DNA of 35,497 nt from a virus. Lineage: Duplodnaviria; Caudoviricetes. This document shows, in pieces, positions 1,884 to 10,423 of the stretch. Location of the stretch: positions 1 to 35,497 of the IMG/VR virus record IMGVR_UViG_3300032295_000660; one strand, written 5' to 3'. Both the position numbers and the translations under genes were made by a program. Each line of letters starts with the position of its first letter. The stretch's first letter is position 1. The notes beneath the pieces are model-generated. The model saw nothing but the letters and a program-made list of their open reading frames with translations. It had not been told where the DNA came from and did no database searches.

Positions 1884-3350
1884 TCACCATTTCGACACGT
1901 TCGGCAATGGTTTGACCGTTGCCGCCCGATTGGCCGGGAGACGCTGCACCAGGTTGATGGCGTCGAACATCGGGTCAAGCTGGTCATCATGAGCGCCAGC
2001 CGGGAAAGCTGCAACCTCGCTCAGGAAGTCTGAAAGCCATGGCGCGTCCTGCGGCAGCACCACGTTGCCGGACGCGATGAACGGAGCCGCGTCATAGCCT
2101 CTGCTGATCTTGTCCTTGCTGCGTTGCACAGCGACAACAGGGATGCCCTCGCGCCGCAGGGTCTGGATCAGGCCGGTGCCGGACACCTTGTCTTCCACGT
2201 ACATGCCGCGCAGGGCAGAGCCTTGGGCCGCCGGGCGCATGTCGTTCAGGTGCTTGAGCCAGAAAGCCCTGGCGTTGATCAGAAGCTCTGGAGCCTCCCA
2301 CTTTCCGCGCACCTGGTCGAGCTTGACCGCCTGGCCAACGGTCGAACGCGCCCAGCACTGCAGCACCGACCAGTCGTTGTGGTCAGCGGTCTTTTGGGCC
2401 GTGTCCACGGTGATGAAGCGGAACTCGAGCTGCGGGACGCTAGCCCAATACTTGAACCACTCGGTGTTGATGATGCCGCCGCCACGGGGCGCAGGCCGCT
2501 GCTGGAGCTGGCCAGCCGTGCCGTAGGGGCCGAGGGTTTTCTCCAGCTCGGACACCTGGGCTTCACCAAAGCGCTCGGGGAACATCAGCTCGCCTTCCTT
2601 GGTGCGCGGGTCAGTCCAGCCGATGCTGGTGGTGCAGCGGTGCTCAGGCTCGAAGCGCATCGGGATGCACAGGTGCACGTAAGGCAGGCCCATGTCTTTG
2701 ATGACGCCGGAAATGTCCTTCTCGTTCAGGCGCTGCATGATGACCACGATTGCCGACTTGTCGGAGTTGACGCGGGTCGGCAGCGTCTCGGTGAAGGCGA
2801 TCTTGGCCGCCTCCAGCTTGGCCTGGCTGTTGGCATTGTCGGCGCTGATCGGGTCGTCCAGGATGACCCGGTCGCCTCGCACGCCGGTCATGCTGGTGAA
2901 GGCTCGGGCCTGTCGGATGCCCTTGCGGGTATTCCCGAACTCGCGCTTTCCATCCAGGTCGGCCAGCAGGTCAAGCGGCCAGAGCTTCTGAAACCACTCG
3001 GACTTGATCAGGTCGCGGCAGCGTCGGCTGTCACGGATGGCCAGCTGCTCCTCGTGGGCCGTACCCACAAAGCGCATCTCAGGCAGGCCAACTGGCCCCC
3101 ACTCCCAAGCTGGCCAGATCACGCCGGTCAGCAAAGACTTCATGGAGCCGGGTGGCACGTTCATCAGCAGACGGTTGATCTCGCCCTTGGTCACAGCTTC
3201 TAGGTGCAGGCAGATGGCATCCAGCGCCCAGCCCCACTTCAGCTGGGCAGCCGGTTCAAGCACACGCCAGGCACGCTTGGCAAACTCAGCCAGGCTGCGC
3301 TTGCACAGCTCACGCTCGATGGCCAGCAGGTCAGCTTCGGTCAGTTGCAT
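1884..3350 (-). CDS. terL: Terminase large subunit
   Basis: NVPPGSMKS Walker A-like, VILDDP Walker B, VIMQRL motif III, C-terminal nuclease TVDTA...HDDQLD; ATG at 3350. Confidence 0.95.
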   Translation of the reverse strand: MQLTEADLLAIERELCKRSLAEFAKRAWRVLEPAAQLKWGWALDAICLHLEAVTKGEINRLLMNVPPGSMKSLLTGVIWPAWEWGPVGLPEMRFVGTAHEEQLAIRDSRRCRDLIKSEWFQKLWPLDLLADLDGKREFGNTRKGIRQARAFTSMTGVRGDRVILDDPISADNANSQAKLEAAKIAFTETLPTRVNSDKSAIVVIMQRLNEKDISGVIKDMGLPYVHLCIPMRFEPEHRCTTSIGWTDPRTKEGELMFPERFGEAQVSELEKTLGPYGTAGQLQQRPAPRGGGIINTEWFKYWASVPQLEFRFITVDTAQKTADHNDWSVLQCWARSTVGQAVKLDQVRGKWEAPELLINARAFWLKHLNDMRPAAQGSALRGMYVEDKVSGTGLIQTLRREGIPVVAVQRSKDKISRGYDAAPFIASGNVVLPQDAPWLSDFLSEVAAFPAGAHDDQLDPMFDAINLVQRLPANRAATVKPLPNVSKW

Positions 3351-3900
3351 TTTTGCAGTTCTCAAAGTGATAACGCTTCATGATCGGAGCGCCACCTATA
3401 AGCAAACAGTGCGGACATTGAATTTTTGGTTTTGGTTGACCAGACATGGTCTCGCTGATCTTTTTTTTGGTGTTTGAATCTCTTGGTTTACCGGCCATGT
3501 GTTTGTTGCCTATTTTTTTGGCGCTCAACTTTTCTTTGGTTTCATGGCTAAAAACTTTTCCGATGTGTGAAATCGAAAGTTTTTTTCTTGTTTCAGCGGT
3601 TGGGACATAACCAGAACATCCTTCGCCACCATCAGTCATGTTGCAAAGCCGAATGCCAATGGAACGAAGCTGGTCGATTCGTTCAGCCTCAGCAAGAAAA
3701 GCAAGTTCCTCTGTCACGTTTTGAATCGTCATGCGCACAGAAAAACCACCGGATTTGTCAACAATGCTTTTCCAATGTTTGCTTCTTTTGCCGATAACGT
3801 AAGCGCGTTTTTTGCATCCTTTACCAACGTAAAAAACATTTCCAGTGTCATTGCGGATGTGCTCATACACGTAAAACATTTTTTCTTGAGCCTGAATCAT
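3331..3900 (-). CDS. Free-standing GIY-YIG homing endonuclease with NUMOD3-like repeats
   Basis: YVYEH...FYVGKG...R, conserved E, N.TDGGEG, repeats ETRKKLS/ETKEKLS/NTKKKIS; AT-rich; inserted between terS and terL. Confidence 0.85.
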   Translation of the reverse strand: MIQAQEKMFYVYEHIRNDTGNVFYVGKGCKKRAYVIGKRSKHWKSIVDKSGGFSVRMTIQNVTEELAFLAEAERIDQLRSIGIRLCNMTDGGEGCSGYVPTAETRKKLSISHIGKVFSHETKEKLSAKKIGNKHMAGKPRDSNTKKKISETMSGQPKPKIQCPHCLLIGGAPIMKRYHFENCKNATDRS

Positions 3901-5751: not shown

Positions 5752-6314
5752 GGTTTACCTTTCTTGGTTGAGAGCGCTGCCGCCCGATAGTGTTTGGCCA
5801 GTTCGATCAGGCCTTCGTGAGAGTATTTGCGCACCGTGTTGTCGCTTTCGATGCTTTCCACGGCTTGCAGGCCGATTCGTTCGACCAGGCGCTTGCGGTA
5901 TTCCACGTGGTTCCCGGCCAGGTAGTTGTTGCAGTGCTTGCATTGGCCGTGGCAGTTTTCCTCGACAAACCTCATGTTCGGTGCGCTGCCGACTGATCGG
6001 TAGTGTCCTGCATCGTAGGTGTTCGGCTCACTGCTCAGTGGAGTCCCACAGGAAATGCAGGGTTTACCCGCATCTCTGGCACGGATGAATGCGTTGAAGG
6101 CCGTCTGCGCTTTCTTGGTCAGCTGCGGCTTGGTTTGCATGGCGTCAAGCTTCTGGCGGGTTTCCTTGCGGTCTTTGGCCTGCTCCTTGGCTTGGGCCTT
6201 CTCCGTAGTTTTTCGGGCCAACACAAGGGCGCACGGTGGGCTGCACACCGTTTGCAGTGGCCTGGTCTTGGTGTAGGCGCACTGGCAGACTTTGCACTTT
6301 GCGGGTTTTGTCAT
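5748..6314 (-). CDS. ninG: NinG/Rap-family recombination endonuclease
   Basis: CKVC..CS..C zinc motif; FNAFIRARD..KPCISCG..DAGHYRSVG..N.HGQC..CN. Confidence 0.9.
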   Translation of the reverse strand: MTKPAKCKVCQCAYTKTRPLQTVCSPPCALVLARKTTEKAQAKEQAKDRKETRQKLDAMQTKPQLTKKAQTAFNAFIRARDAGKPCISCGTPLSSEPNTYDAGHYRSVGSAPNMRFVEENCHGQCKHCNNYLAGNHVEYRKRLVERIGLQAVESIESDNTVRKYSHEGLIELAKHYRAAALSTKKGKP

Positions 6315-6598
6315 TTGACGCCCCTGTCGTCCAGCCAAAGCATGAACAGCAAACAGCATCCAGCGTGGGCCAGGTGGTGCAAGCCGCTTTCAGGGTCGTT
6401 CTTCTCGCCATCGCGCCAGGCGTGCACATGCCGCATCAAGGCGTCGTAGTAACGCTCCGGGCCTCGGTCAACGTGCTGCCAGTTGTTCTCGGTGTACTTT
6501 GCTGCGCCGAACTCCAGCACGGCAATGATTTGTTGGACGGTTCCGGCAGGCAGAAGGCTCCAGCGTGGCTTTTTCCCGTCGTGCTTCGTGCCGATCAT
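6311..6598 (-). CDS. dATP/dGTP diphosphohydrolase N-terminal-domain protein (DUF5664-like)
   Basis: KHDGKKPRWSLLP, VLEFGAAKY..NNW, DALMRH, DPESGLHHLAHA. Confidence 0.85.
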   Translation of the reverse strand: MIGTKHDGKKPRWSLLPAGTVQQIIAVLEFGAAKYTENNWQHVDRGPERYYDALMRHVHAWRDGEKNDPESGLHHLAHAGCCLLFMLWLDDRGVK

Positions 6599-7995: not shown

Positions 7996-8522
7996 TCTCC
8001 CTCCTGCAGGCGCAGTGCCTTCTTGGCCATGTCAACGCTGCCAGCGCTGATTCGCGCACCAGCTGCCTGCCTGGCCATAATCTTTCTCGCCCAGTCTCGC
8101 CCGTCGTTCATAACCACAAACTCCACCGGGCCGATGGGCTTTTCATCTGGCGGTGGAAGTCTGCGAGGCTGGTCATCGCTGAAGGTCTTGCGCGGCATCA
8201 CGGCTTTGCAGATCGATTCAAACTGCGGAAGGTTCGGCGGAAACTCTGGACAAACCTCGGTCAGGCGCTTGGCGGCAGTCTCGATGGTGTCCGGTGAATA
8301 ATTGGCCAGGGTCGATTCCCAGACCAGCATGGCAGCGCGGATTCCCTTGTCCTTGCCGTTGGCGTCGCGCTCGCCTGTGGAAAACTTAGTGGTGAACAGG
8401 CTTCCGTAAGACCCGTGCAAGACCAGAAACAGCTTGCGGATGGTCGGATTGTCTCCGCGTGGCGCGGGTTGTTGGCCAGCGTTCTGGATGGCCTGGCTTG
8501 CCATTTCAGCGAGGTTATTCAT
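7992..8522 (-). CDS. Putative replication accessory protein (P-like/helicase-loader position)
   Basis: Directly downstream of and overlapping the initiator; W...L...EFPPNLPQF motif. Confidence 0.55.
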   Translation of the reverse strand: MNNLAEMASQAIQNAGQQPAPRGDNPTIRKLFLVLHGSYGSLFTTKFSTGERDANGKDKGIRAAMLVWESTLANYSPDTIETAAKRLTEVCPEFPPNLPQFESICKAVMPRKTFSDDQPRRLPPPDEKPIGPVEFVVMNDGRDWARKIMARQAAGARISAGSVDMAKKALRLQEGE

Positions 8523-9219
8523 CGTCGAACACCCCATCAAAGATTGCGCGGGAGGCTGCAGCGTGCTTGTGCTCGTTGCGGCCAGCCGTCCTAGCCTGGT
8601 TCTGTCGCCTCACCCAGTTGCGCCAGGTTGCATCCCAGTCGGTCTTGACGCCTTTCTGTCCAGGCTGGGCGATCCAGTAATCCCTGAACTCGTCAAACAC
8701 CTGTTTGGGCACAAGGTCGGGACGTTCCTGTTTGCAGAAGTGAAACCAGTCAGTCGGCAGAAGGCAGTCTGCTGGCAAGCGCGAGCCGCGCTGCTTTCCT
8801 GTCTCCTGTTTCTTGGTTACTGGTTCTTGGTTTATGGTTATTGGTTCATGGTTAGGTGGCGCTTCGTTCACGCTTGGTGCACGGTTCGTGCTTTTCTCTC
8901 TACGCTTCGTTTCACGATCAAGGGCGATCTGTTTGTTTTTGTCGGCCTTGGCGTGGTAGTCCAGAAGCTCGGCCAGGATGCGGTCTTGCACATACTGGCC
9001 ATCGTCATCCAGTTTGAAAAACCGGCTGAGCACAAACTTAACCGCCTCAACTTCGGCATCAGTACTGGCCCAAGTCCACTCGATGGCCTCTTCAAGCGTG
9101 GGGAACTTCTCACGGTCGTAGCACGAATCAATCAGAAGCGTGTACGCACCGTGCTGCAACATGGACAGCCGTCCGCATTTTTTGGCGTAGTCGCCTAGGT
9201 TTCTTTTGTAATAGTGCAT
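8515..9219 (-). CDS. Replication initiator, DUF1376 (YdaU-like)
   Basis: MHYYKRNLGDY...LSMLQHGAYTLLID..Y N-terminus; FRDYW...DW.ATWRNW C-terminus; internal repeats. Confidence 0.85.
   Translation of the reverse strand: MHYYKRNLGDYAKKCGRLSMLQHGAYTLLIDSCYDREKFPTLEEAIEWTWASTDAEVEAVKFVLSRFFKLDDDGQYVQDRILAELLDYHAKADKNKQIALDRETKRREKSTNRAPSVNEAPPNHEPITINQEPVTKKQETGKQRGSRLPADCLLPTDWFHFCKQERPDLVPKQVFDEFRDYWIAQPGQKGVKTDWDATWRNWVRRQNQARTAGRNEHKHAAASRAIFDGVFDDE
8812..8916. repeat. Putative replication origin: six 7-mers (NNTGGTT) plus iteron-like AC(G/C)AA(G/C)CG repeats
   Basis: CTTGGTT ACTGGTT CTTGGTT TATGGTT ATTGGTT CATGGTT at 8812-8853; 11-bp-period repeats from about 8860. Confidence 0.6.
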
Positions 9220-9230
9220 TGCACTTCCTC

Positions 9231-9310
9231 GCAAACCCTCCAGAAAGACTTACGGCAGGCGGGAGGTTCGCTTTTCGAGTGGGTAGCTACTCCCACCCTA
9301 GCCGGGTCTT
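9231..9310 (-). ncRNA. Structured 5' leader of the initiator gene (three-way junction with possible pseudoknot)
   Basis: AAGAC/GTCTT, CGGC/GCCG, GTGGG/CCCAC, GCG/CGC pairings; loop CCTCC complementary to downstream GGAGG. Confidence 0.55.
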
Positions 9311-9315
9311 GCATC

Positions 9316-9344
9316 ACTTTACCTCAGGCGACCATGTCGCTCAA
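9316..9344 (-). promoter_or_regulatory. Sigma70-type promoter TTGAGC-17-TAAAGT
   Basis: 17-bp spacing; predicted start about 9310, the first base of the structured leader. Confidence 0.55.
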
Positions 9345-9536
9345 GGACTTTCGGAAAGCTTGCCCAAATTTCTTGTCCAAAACTGGCCGCCACTTGTGCG
9401 CCACGCCATTGTTGGCCCAGGCTTGCACGGCAGGGCCGCTGACATCTCCCAAAGCCTTGGCCAACTTTGCATAGCTGCCCGCCTGCTTATGAGCAAAGTC
9501 ATAGACGTGAAGGTAATAGGTGTCATCTTTTTTCAT
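9324..9536 (-). CDS. Cro-like HTH regulator
   Basis: AGSYAKLAKALGDVSGPAVQAW HTH; first gene of the leftward arm. Confidence 0.75.
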   Translation of the reverse strand: MKKDDTYYLHVYDFAHKQAGSYAKLAKALGDVSGPAVQAWANNGVAHKWRPVLDKKFGQAFRKSLSDMVA

Positions 9537-9659
9537 AGACCAGACTATAACAGAAGTTTTTAACGTGACTAAAAATTTATTTTTGCGGAATCCTGTAAAA
9601 TTTTCTTGTAATGGTGTATGATTCGTTTCACCAACAACCACCCACGAAAGGTAAACACG
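9537..9659. promoter_or_regulatory. Divergent AT-rich control region
   Basis: Leftward TGtTATAGT (-10 at 9549-9544); rightward TATGAT at 9617-9622; lies between the two arms. Confidence 0.65.
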
Positions 9660-9845
9660 ATGCAAGACGACTTTTACATAAACGCGGTGGACGGCAATGC
9701 CGCCATCGTCAGCCAAAACGAGGAGCACATCTCGCTTGGCCTGCACATCCGAGGCGGCAGCTGCCGCATAGACCTGACGCCAGCGCAGGCCCAGGAACTG
9801 ATCAACGCAATCACCCAGACTTTGAACCAGGAGACAACAGCATGA
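9660..9845 (+). CDS. Hypothetical protein
   Basis: AAAGGT SD; ATGA overlap with ERF. Confidence 0.65.
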   Translation: MQDDFYINAVDGNAAIVSQNEEHISLGLHIRGGSCRIDLTPAQAQELINAITQTLNQETTA

Positions 9846-10423
9846 AAGAGATCGCAGCCGCATTGGTCAAGGCCCAGAAAGCCTTTGGCCCAGCCCTCAA
9901 GACAAAAACAAACCCGCACCTCAAAGCAAAGTATGCCGACCTGGGCGACTGCATTGAGGCCGTGATCGATGGACTGAACAACAACGGCATCGCCCTGATG
10001 CAACAGACGCACGAATGCGAATCTGGCGTCCTGGTCGAAACAGTCTTCATCCACGAATCCGGTGAAACGTACTCGGCCGGCAAGTTCCACGTTCCAGCCG
10101 TCAAGCATGACGCGCAAGGGTACGGCAGCGCCCTGACTTACGCACGCCGCTACAGCCTGATGGCCGCCTGCGGCATTGCCCCAGAAGACGACGACGGCCA
10201 GGCCACCAGCAAGAAAACTCCGAAGCAGCTGGACGGTTACCCAGAATACGAAGCCGAGACACTTCCAGCCATGCGAGAAGCCGCGCTGCAGGGCAACGAG
10301 ACGCTGGTCTCAGCGTTCCAGGCTTTGCCCAAGTCGGCACACAAGGCCGCGTTCTGGCAAGCCCAGGGGCCAGCCCTCAAGAAGGCCGCCAAGGCCGCTG
10401 ACGAGCAGGAGACAACAGCATGA
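9842..10423 (+). CDS. erf: ERF-family ssDNA-annealing protein
   Basis: AAALVKAQ...NPHLKAKYADL...HESGE...QGYGSALTYARRYSL...EDDDG. Confidence 0.92.
   Translation: MKEIAAALVKAQKAFGPALKTKTNPHLKAKYADLGDCIEAVIDGLNNNGIALMQQTHECESGVLVETVFIHESGETYSAGKFHVPAVKHDAQGYGSALTYARRYSLMAACGIAPEDDDGQATSKKTPKQLDGYPEYEAETLPAMREAALQGNETLVSAFQALPKSAHKAAFWQAQGPALKKAAKAADEQETTA

What the first reader, a model, noticed from the sequence alone, without database searches (positions are those of the whole stretch)
9219..9344. Promoter-initiated structured RNA switch in front of the replication initiator
Seen on the minus strand: a TTGAGC-17-TAAAGT promoter puts +1 at about 9310, the first base of a fully pairable 66-nt element. 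The pairings are AAGAC/GTCTT, CGGC/GCCG, AG/CT, a GTGGG/CCCAC hairpin around AGTAGCTA, an unpaired CGAAAA junction, and a GCG/CGC hairpin. The strand GCGAACCTCC, which includes that hairpin's loop, is nearly complementary to GGAGGGTTTGC at 9241-9231, directly beside the GAGGA SD and ATG (9219) of the DUF1376 initiator. Inference: a cis-acting riboswitch-like or antisense-responsive pseudoknot that sets initiator translation, analogous to the rep pseudoknots of IncI/IncB plasmids. I cannot assign it to a named RNA family.
Basis: partly seen in the sequence, partly recalled or inferred. Interest (0 to 1): 0.78.

Follow-up and report, generated by a model that had tools for sequence, protein, structure and literature searches.

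The report
Self-pairing int-alpA-like leader before phage initiator
A small three-armed RNA sequence in front of this phage's predicted replication-initiator gene is a divergent form of a catalogued but unexplained RNA family (Rfam int-alpA); one loop matches both a nearby decoy site and the ribosome-binding site and another loop matches itself, so it likely pairs with a second copy of itself to turn down initiator synthesis as phage genomes accumulate.

Summary
The element is real. It matches Rfam int-alpA (RF02996) over the whole model at 24.6 bits, below the 35.8 cut-off; long-arm relatives reach 36.5 and 37.0. Across 265 clustered homologues:
(1) loop L3 is complementary to two downstream sites, A (pseudoknot site, inside the Rfam model) and B (ribosome-binding region, beyond it), both well above swapped controls;
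(2) loop L2 holds a palindrome in 176 of 265 against 65 shuffled, and its two adjacent central bases covary (AU 68, GC 38, other 3 of 109 long-class rows), which cannot be a same-chain pair;
(3) a -10 box sits just before the first stem.
Best reading (0.45): the monomer pairs L3 with A and leaves translation open; a symmetric kissing dimer moves L3 to B and represses the initiator, sensing gene dosage. Transcription, dimer and direction are untested. The scan found this family before on other DNA (eight notes, one with the self-pairing loop). My searches found no paper on its function; the original supplement was unreadable.

The parts
9324..9536 (-). 70-aa Cro-like helix-turn-helix gene; its last codons contain the -35 box
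   Evidence: ORF; weak YdaS hit, E 0.0089, below the curated cut-off; the Cro-like label is inference
9339..9344 (-). predicted -35 box TTGAGC
   Evidence: 26 of 55 long-class representatives with a -10 box have 4 or more of 6 TTGACA matches at 16-18 nt spacing, against 5 at control spacing
9316..9321 (-). predicted -10 box TAAAGT; predicted +1 at 9310 or 9309
   Evidence: positional enrichment of TAnnnT in homologues; start site not measured
9245..9310 (-). three-way-junction core. P1: AAGAC 9310-9306 / GUCUU 9249-9245 and CGGC 9304-9301 / GCCG 9256-9253. Junction: UA 9300-9299, GAAAA 9276-9272, CU 9258-9257
   Evidence: int-alpA alignment; P1 pairs kept in 115-116 of 116 long-class cores, and the outer helix is GAAAC/GUUUC in most and AAGAC/GUCUU in this lineage
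9277..9298 (-). P2, 7 bp (GGGUGGG/CCCACUC), the long-arm form
   Evidence: 6 of 7 pairs show changes on both sides, 93.6% of cells paired
9284..9291 (-). L2 loop AGUAGCUA with the self-complementary hexamer UAGCUA (9289-9284) and central G9287-C9286: predicted symmetric kissing loop
9259..9271 (-). P3 (GCG/CGC) with L3 loop AACCUCC (9268-9262), the two-target loop
   Evidence: middle pair varies CG 52, AU 46, GC 14, UA 4 of 116, all paired (partly fixed by the search patterns)
9237..9241 (-). site A, GGAGG: predicted pseudoknot partner of L3 (decoy), ending 17 nt before the ATG
   Evidence: duplex -8.6 kcal/mol here; long class own -7.7 against swapped -4.7
9226..9230 (-). site B, GAGG, within the Shine-Dalgarno-like GAGGA, 6 nt before the ATG: second L3 partner
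   Evidence: duplex -5.9 kcal/mol here; long class own -6.9 against swapped -4.3; coding-region control shows no difference
9219..9234 (-). possible P4 hairpin UUGC/GCAA that would hold site B in its loop
   Evidence: enriched family-wide (0.49 against 0.14 swapped) but only 0.19 in the long class, so weak for this copy
8515..9219 (-). 234-aa DUF1376 protein, predicted replication initiator
   Evidence: Pfam DUF1376 E 2e-20; PHROGs primosomal protein E 2.7e-45 and replication initiation protein E 7.7e-12

Best explanation
The element is a divergent, long-arm form of the int-alpA three-way-junction RNA that likely starts at its own promoter and likely works as a self-counting translational switch: a lone transcript would pair loop L3 with site A and leave the ribosome-binding site open, while two transcripts would dock through their self-complementary L2 loops and move L3 onto site B, blocking initiator translation when the RNA is abundant. 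Shown by sequence comparison: the junction and stems, the match of L3 to both A and B, the position of B at the ribosome-binding region, the self-complementarity of L2, and the -10 box before P1. Inferred: transcription from 9310, dimer formation, coupling of the dimer to the A-to-B switch, whether B is bound in cis or across the dimer, and the direction (dimer = off). The likely result is negative feedback that holds initiator output steady as genome copies rise.
For: L3 against two sites: best helix 15.0 own against 10.9 swapped, second helix 12.3 against 8.8, second helix at least 11 in 77% against 17% (265 representatives). Both sites score at least 10 in 226 of 265 and use 3 or more of the same loop bases in 218 of 226, so they exclude each other. 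B ends 0-12 nt before the called start codon in 176 of 226, and 77 of these 176 are unlike an SD by my criterion, so the match is more than anti-SD composition. Fixed windows with a coding-region control give the same answer. L2: palindrome of 4 nt or more in 176 of 265 against 64.8 +- 6.2 shuffled, 63 of 90 distinct loops against 25.0 +- 3.9, 13 different tetramers, and L3 loops depleted (22 against 45.8). Central dinucleotide self-complementary in 181 of 189 representatives with a defined register, against 44 of 265 for L3. Adjacent columns 25 and 26 are AU 68, GC 38, other 3 of 109; columns 24 and 27 are AU 37, CG 36, GC 24, other 12. PMC12286853 (passages) takes covariation of adjacent loop bases, including swaps among GGCC, GAUC and AGCU, as support for symmetric kissing loops seen by cryo-EM in OLE and GOLLD. 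The largest non-palindromic class is the GACG tetraloop (35 of 265), which forms loop-loop contacts in MuLV RNA (PMC5874298, passages). Downstream genes suit dosage control: 36 DUF1376, 18 homing-nuclease-like, 3 antirepressor/KilA-N, 3 ParB/Dam, 2 Prim-Pol of 148 scanned.
Against: No experiment: no start site, dimer or reporter data. Nothing here links the L2 dimer to the L3 switch. In this copy B gives only 4 bp (-5.9 kcal/mol) against 5 bp at A (-8.6), P4 is weak, and the predicted minimum-energy fold is a rod that buries L3. The palindromes are not independent events: loop types need 43 changes on a DUF1376 tree against 47.6 shuffled (quick tree, 91 columns, 42 of 82 inner branches open), and one P3 occurs with five loop types, so a dozen or so alleles are being reshuffled. 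The registers of the fixed-position counts were chosen. 27 of 78 DUF1376 relatives lack the element in the 115 nt before the ATG, so it is dispensable or replaceable. 75 of 148 downstream proteins have no Pfam family, and three look like host housekeeping genes, probably false calls.
Confidence: 0.45

Rival explanations
1. Cis-only switch: L3 moves between A and B within one transcript, driven by folding kinetics, a small molecule or a protein that binds the conserved junction; any L2 dimer serves another purpose.
Against: Does not account for the adjacent-base covariation in L2; downstream genes are unrelated initiators, nucleases and antirepressors with no shared metabolite. Junction conservation could not be measured here because the search patterns fixed it.
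Confidence: 0.2
2. Trans-acting small RNA: some transcripts end or are cut after P1; the short RNA lacks site A, docks through L2 on full-length leaders and blocks site B with its free L3, in the manner recalled for the P1 C4 and P4 CI RNAs.
For: Rfam types the family 'Gene; sRNA'; a U-rich tract follows P1; 222 distinct L3 loops in 265 representatives and freely reassorting L2 alleles look like specificity codes.
Against: A run of 4 or more T follows P1 in only 70 of 265, so there is no general intrinsic terminator; no C4 match in Rfam; no short RNA observed.
Confidence: 0.15
3. Same dimer, opposite sign: the monomer rests with L3 on B (off) and dimerisation shifts L3 to A, giving a threshold or timer that turns the initiator on.
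For: Uses the same covariation evidence; the direction is not fixed by sequence.
Against: A is made first and pairs at least as strongly (mean score 14.9 against 13.7; -8.6 against -5.9 here), which favours A in the monomer; positive feedback fits nuclease genes poorly (inference).
Confidence: 0.1
4. The L2 palindrome acts in DNA, as a methylation, restriction or dimeric-protein site beside the promoter.
For: All the tetramers are 4-bp palindromes; the phage encodes a DNA methylase.
Against: Flanking pairs tolerate mismatches (UGCU, CGCU, AGCA) while the central pair does not; GACG and UAGC tetraloops are not palindromes; the palindrome is off-centre to the P2 stem; the loop's own tetramer is not consistently less avoided in flanking DNA (71 loci).
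Confidence: 0.05
5. IncI/IncB-type control: an antisense RNA from the opposite strand binds L3 and prevents an activating pseudoknot.
For: An activating pseudoknot upstream of the ribosome-binding site of an initiator gene is the repZ arrangement (PMC8383071, passages).
Against: No positional peak of antisense -10-like boxes; no plus-strand promoter hit in 9000-9900; no PK-repZ match; a reading frame through the leader in only 21 of 129 long-class sequences.
Confidence: 0.04

Closest known systems
int-alpA RNA motif, Rfam RF02996 (typed 'Gene; sRNA'; attribution to the Weinberg et al. 2017 survey PMC5737381 is recalled, the main text does not name it)
   Same: Full-length alignment to model positions 1-71; CUAG, CGAAAAGCG and CGCCUG; three-way junction; U-rich tail ending in the site-A purines.
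   Different: 24.6 bits, under the 35.8 cut-off; 7-bp P2 with an 8-nt loop instead of 4 bp and 5 nt; 3-bp P3; internal loop in P1; lies before a DUF1376 gene in a phage with no integrase match. Site B and P4 lie beyond the model, and the consensus line shown marks neither pseudoknot nor L2 self-pairing.
Symmetric kissing loops of OLE (L9.3, bridge B3) and GOLLD (L21a, bridge B8), PMC12286853
   Same: Covariation of adjacent loop bases among palindromes, including GGCC, GAUC, AGCU and GC/CG.
   Different: Those are large free-standing RNAs with solved multimers; this is a 66-nt mRNA leader whose dimer is only predicted.
IncI ColIb-P9 repZ pseudoknot with Inc antisense RNA (Rfam PK-repZ)
   Same: A pseudoknot upstream of an initiator's ribosome-binding site, likely permissive for translation.
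   Different: No sequence match, no sign of a conserved antisense promoter or leader peptide; here one loop has two direct-repeat targets and a second loop is self-complementary.
Phage P1 C4 and P4 CI RNAs (mechanism recalled; search listing only)
   Same: Leader-encoded RNA whose loop matches repeated targets in its own transcript.
   Different: No Rfam C4 match; both targets lie downstream within 30 nt; no evidence of a released small RNA.
Retroviral dimer-initiation loops and the MuLV GACG tetraloops (PMC5874298)
   Same: A palindrome in a hairpin loop; GACG tetraloops in 35 of 265 homologues.
   Different: Those link genomes for packaging; the proposed output here is translation.

Membership tests
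int-alpA RF02996 | covariance-model score at or above the gathering cut-off of 35.8 bits | tested here: not met
   24.6 bits; nearest variant L124 34.9; long-arm relatives L092 37.0 and L027 36.5 pass; 10 of the 20 loci scanned pass. Filed as a variant, not a formal member.
int-alpA RF02996 | full-length match to the model | tested here: met
   positions 1-71 of 71, E 1.1e-4 for this genome
int-alpA RF02996 | three-way junction P1/P2/P3 with G after CUA paired to C before GAAAA | tested here: met
int-alpA RF02996 | conserved words CUAG, CGAAAAGCG, CGCCUG | tested here: met
   all present at 9301-9298, 9277-9269 and 9261-9256
int-alpA RF02996 | neighbouring integrase or alpA gene (read from the family name; recalled) | tested here: not met
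   no PF00589 match in this genome; 1 integrase and no AlpA hit among 148 downstream proteins
int-alpA RF02996 | features described in the authors' supplement (context, pseudoknots, notes) | not testable with these tools
   supplement of PMC5737381 could not be read
IncI/IncB repZ pseudoknot system | match to Rfam PK-repZ | tested here: not met
   no hit
IncI/IncB repZ pseudoknot system | cis-encoded antisense RNA over the leader | tested here: inconclusive
   no conserved antisense -10 position; no stranded reads available
IncI/IncB repZ pseudoknot system | translated leader peptide coupled to the initiator (recalled) | tested here: not met
   a frame through the element in 21 of 129 long-class sequences; here it starts upstream of the predicted +1
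C4 / CI antisense RNAs | match to an Rfam C4-type model | tested here: not met
C4 / CI antisense RNAs | processed small RNA acting in trans | not testable with these tools
   only contigs were available
symmetric kissing-loop homodimers | compensatory change between adjacent central loop bases | tested here: met
   AU 68, GC 38, other 3 of 109; GC, AU, CG and UA all seen
symmetric kissing-loop homodimers | physical dimer | not testable with these tools
   needs native gels, mass photometry or a structure
metabolite-binding riboswitch | selective ligand binding that changes structure | not testable with these tools
   no riboswitch family matched; downstream genes suggest no metabolite

The most novel reading that the evidence does not exclude
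int-alpA RNAs are protein-free gene-dosage sensors: mRNA leaders that measure their own concentration by symmetric kissing-loop dimerisation and convert it into ribosome-site blocking, with swappable L2 and L3/A/B sequences acting as self/non-self codes among co-infecting phages. The ligand of this switch would be another copy of itself.
Probability: 0.4. Interest if true: 0.85.

Novelty: new variant of a known kind. Interest (0 to 1): 0.62.

Why it matters
It gives a common but unexplained RNA family (about 5,100 IMG/VR stretches estimated for one pattern; also in bacterial genomes of many groups) a precise, cheap-to-test mechanism. If right, it is a form of replication and nuclease control that needs no repressor protein and no separate antisense gene, in a phage where neither an integrase nor an HTH_3 repressor was found. 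Natural alleles of both loops supply ready-made compensatory mutants, and the module would be a compact dosage compensator for synthetic circuits.

Tried and rejected
Rfam at gathering level over the whole window: 0 hits. Single-sequence folding gives a rod that covariation does not support. Extended L3 pairing: not above the swapped control. Antisense promoter and conserved leader peptide: not supported. Restriction or methylation reading of L2: no pattern. General intrinsic terminator after P1: T-run of 4 or more in 70 of 265. A second copy in this genome: four loose pattern matches besides 9301, none passing the element filter, and one Rfam match only. Expression: 4 of 23 listed runs were laid, all low-depth contigs; one contig of run X12 spans 9150-9379, across the predicted +1, but contigs cannot show strand or start and may be DNA, so no conclusion. 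Literature: 'int-alpA' gave 2 papers, neither on its function; 'RF02996' gave 0; searches on palindromic or dimerising phage leaders gave nothing on this RNA (listings); no mention of alpA or DUF1376 in the main texts of PMC10690425 and PMC11109978 (supplements not searched). Look-ups of earlier findings by sequence and by relatives were empty. Rows dropped: 269 of 799 sources gave no element call (pattern noise, short flanks or no leader); 39 of 265 representatives lacked A and B both at score 10 or more; 62 of 210 eligible downstream proteins were not scanned.

Full report
Setting. The window is a complete 35,497-base virus record with direct terminal repeats. It has P22-like head genes, ERF, YqaJ and SSB genes on the plus strand, and NinB, NinG, a DNA methylase and a terminase on the minus strand. 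No integrase (PF00589) or HTH_3 match was found. The element lies on the minus strand between a 70-aa Cro-like gene (9536-9324; weak YdaS hit) and a 234-aa DUF1376 gene (9219-8515) that PHROGs calls a primosomal or replication initiation protein.

Observation. The words and coordinates given are in the sequence. Folding does not prove the structure: the minimum-energy fold is a rod at -28.1 kcal/mol (z -3.36), the three-way junction scores -22.3, and the 96-145-nt versions have z between -0.7 and -1.3. The promoter was not listed by the consensus scan.

Family. No Rfam family reaches its gathering score in the window, but int-alpA (RF02996) aligns over positions 1-71 at 24.6 bits against a cut-off of 35.8. 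Of 20 homologous loci scanned, 18 gave an int-alpA hit and 10 passed the cut-off, among them the long-arm forms L092 and L027. L124, which differs from this copy by three substitutions and a 3-base insertion, scores 34.9. I therefore file the element as a long-P2 variant of int-alpA, not as a formal member.

Homologue set. Six pattern scans and one protein-based scan gave 799 sources including the window. An anchored caller that needs P1, P2 and P3 pairing found 543 elements in 530 of them, 429 exact-unique, in 265 clusters. The patterns fixed the junction words and some closing pairs, so their conservation is not a result of mine. Of 78 DUF1376 relatives with enough upstream DNA, 51 carry the element in the 115 nt before the ATG and 27 do not.

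Stems. In 109 distinct long-class rows, 6 of 7 P2 pairs change on both sides and 93.6% of cells pair; the whole-structure covariation score is 0.674 against 0.206 shuffled and at most 0.272 when slid (the shuffle ignores relatedness). P1 and P3 pairs hold in 115-116 of 116 cores.

Promoter. TAnnnT ends 10-17 nt before CUA in 57 of 70 long-class and 92 of 195 short-class representatives, against 6 and 20 in a control window, with a peak 4-5 nt before the first P1 base. A -35-like word sits at 16-18 nt in 26 of 55 against 5 at control spacing. A transcript that starts at P1 is likely but was not observed; the RNA runs laid were contigs and uninformative.

Two targets for one loop. L3 varies widely (222 distinct loops in 265), yet its best and second-best downstream helices both beat swapped controls (15.0 against 10.9 and 12.3 against 8.8) and start in two clusters, 12-17 and 24-32 nt after CUG. 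Both sites score 10 or more in 226 of 265 and share loop bases in 218 of those. Site B ends 0-12 nt before the called start in 176 of 226. With fixed windows the long class gives -7.7 against -4.7 kcal/mol for A, -6.9 against -4.3 for B, and no difference in a coding window. A hairpin P4 around B is enriched overall (0.49 against 0.14) but not in the long class (0.19). In this copy A is GGAGG 9241-9237, ending 17 nt before the ATG, about at the edge of the 30S footprint (established knowledge), and B is GAGG 9230-9227 in the SD.

The self-complementary loop. L2 holds a palindrome of at least 4 nt in 176 of 265 representatives against 64.8 +- 6.2 shuffled, and in 63 of 90 distinct loops against 25.0; L3 loops are depleted. 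The tetramers include AGCU, CAUG, GAUC, GGCC, UGCA, CGCG and AAUU. At registers chosen, the central two bases are self-complementary in 181 of 189, and in the long class they are AU 68, GC 38, other 3. Variants mostly break the flanking pair, rarely the central one. Adjacent bases cannot pair within one chain; PMC12286853 (passages) uses this signature, with GGCC, GAUC and AGCU, as support for symmetric kissing loops seen by cryo-EM. Another 35 representatives have GACG tetraloops, which make loop-loop contacts in MuLV RNA (PMC5874298, passages). The counts overstate independence: loop types are nearly random on a quick DUF1376 tree (43 changes against 47.6 shuffled, 86 rows, weakly resolved) and one P3 occurs with five loop types, so about a dozen alleles are reshuffled by recombination. 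A DNA-level reading found no support.

Regulated genes. Of 148 downstream proteins scanned (of 210 eligible), 36 are DUF1376 (6 came from the DUF1376-based scan), 18 homing-nuclease-like, 3 KilA-N/antirepressor, 3 ParB/Dam, 2 Prim-Pol, 1 integrase, 1 HTH_36/DnaD, 9 other and 75 without a family.

Mechanism. The parts are one loop, two mutually exclusive targets of which one covers the ribosome-binding region, and one loop built to pair with itself. The simplest reading that uses all of them is concentration sensing: the monomer forms the L3:A pseudoknot and is translated, and an L2:L2 dimer favours L3:B and is silent (0.45). Rivals: a cis-only ligand, protein or kinetic switch (0.2), a released short RNA acting in trans (0.15), the opposite sign (0.1), a DNA-level site (0.05), and IncI-type antisense control (0.04; mechanism from PMC8383071, passages; no antisense promoter signal). 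Dimer, coupling and direction are inferred.

Novelty. The family is catalogued. Searches of the held library found no paper on its function, but the library lacks most subscription journals and the supplement of PMC5737381, which may describe the pseudoknot or the palindrome, could not be read (main-text passages). The scan noted int-alpA-type leaders with a decoy and a ribosome-site target in eight earlier notes on other genomes, one with the self-pairing loop. My reading was recorded before that look-up, and those notes are not independent evidence.

Verdict. Real element, new variant of a known kind, interest 0.62: known family and no experiment, but a strongly supported anatomy and a sharp, testable mechanism.

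Noticed in passing
L140:1880-2003, L162:1885-2003, L186:1883-2003 (similar in L141, L191, L194): A different structured leader fills the same slot before DUF1376 relatives: a 5' hairpin whose loop region UUGGCGG matches a junction CCGCCAA, a three-way junction and a long closing stem with a U-run. Folding z -2.5 to -3.9; no Rfam hit at E 0.5 in the three scanned.
   Followed up: partly
L156:1875-2003 and L159:655-769: Two more unrelated, strongly folding leaders before DUF1376 relatives (z -3.6 and -4.0; no Rfam hit); L159 shares the word CUGGUACUG with the L140 type.
   Followed up: partly
L165-L168, L170-L172, L181, L197, L199: These DUF1376 genes follow directly on another gene; in L166 an int-alpA-like element lies about 280 nt further upstream (1679-1724), so it may head the operon instead.
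   Followed up: partly
window 9195-9317 (-): A 40-codon frame runs through the leader and ends inside the initiator gene; two groups of close relatives keep it open through 3-base insertions, but it occurs in only 21 of 129 long-class sequences.
   Followed up: partly
window 9544-9640: AT-rich divergent control region with a promoter-like site at 9571-9544 (-); no cI-like gene lies between the two transcription units, and no integrase or HTH_3 match was found.
   Followed up: partly
L022, L033, L182, L441, L564: Loci with two elements in front of different genes; 4 of these 5 pairs differ in their L2 core, as insulated self-regulation would need, but the sample is too small to test.
   Followed up: no
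window 3331-3900 (-): Free-standing GIY-YIG/NUMOD3-like gene next to the terminase gene, with no int-alpA element called in front of it.
   Followed up: no
window 6311-6598 (-): 95-aa protein matching a dATP/dGTP pyrophosphohydrolase family (PHROG 801, E 2.6e-37).
   Followed up: no
window, whole: CTAG is under-represented (observed/expected 0.45, 12 sites) yet is kept in the junction of the element.
   Followed up: no
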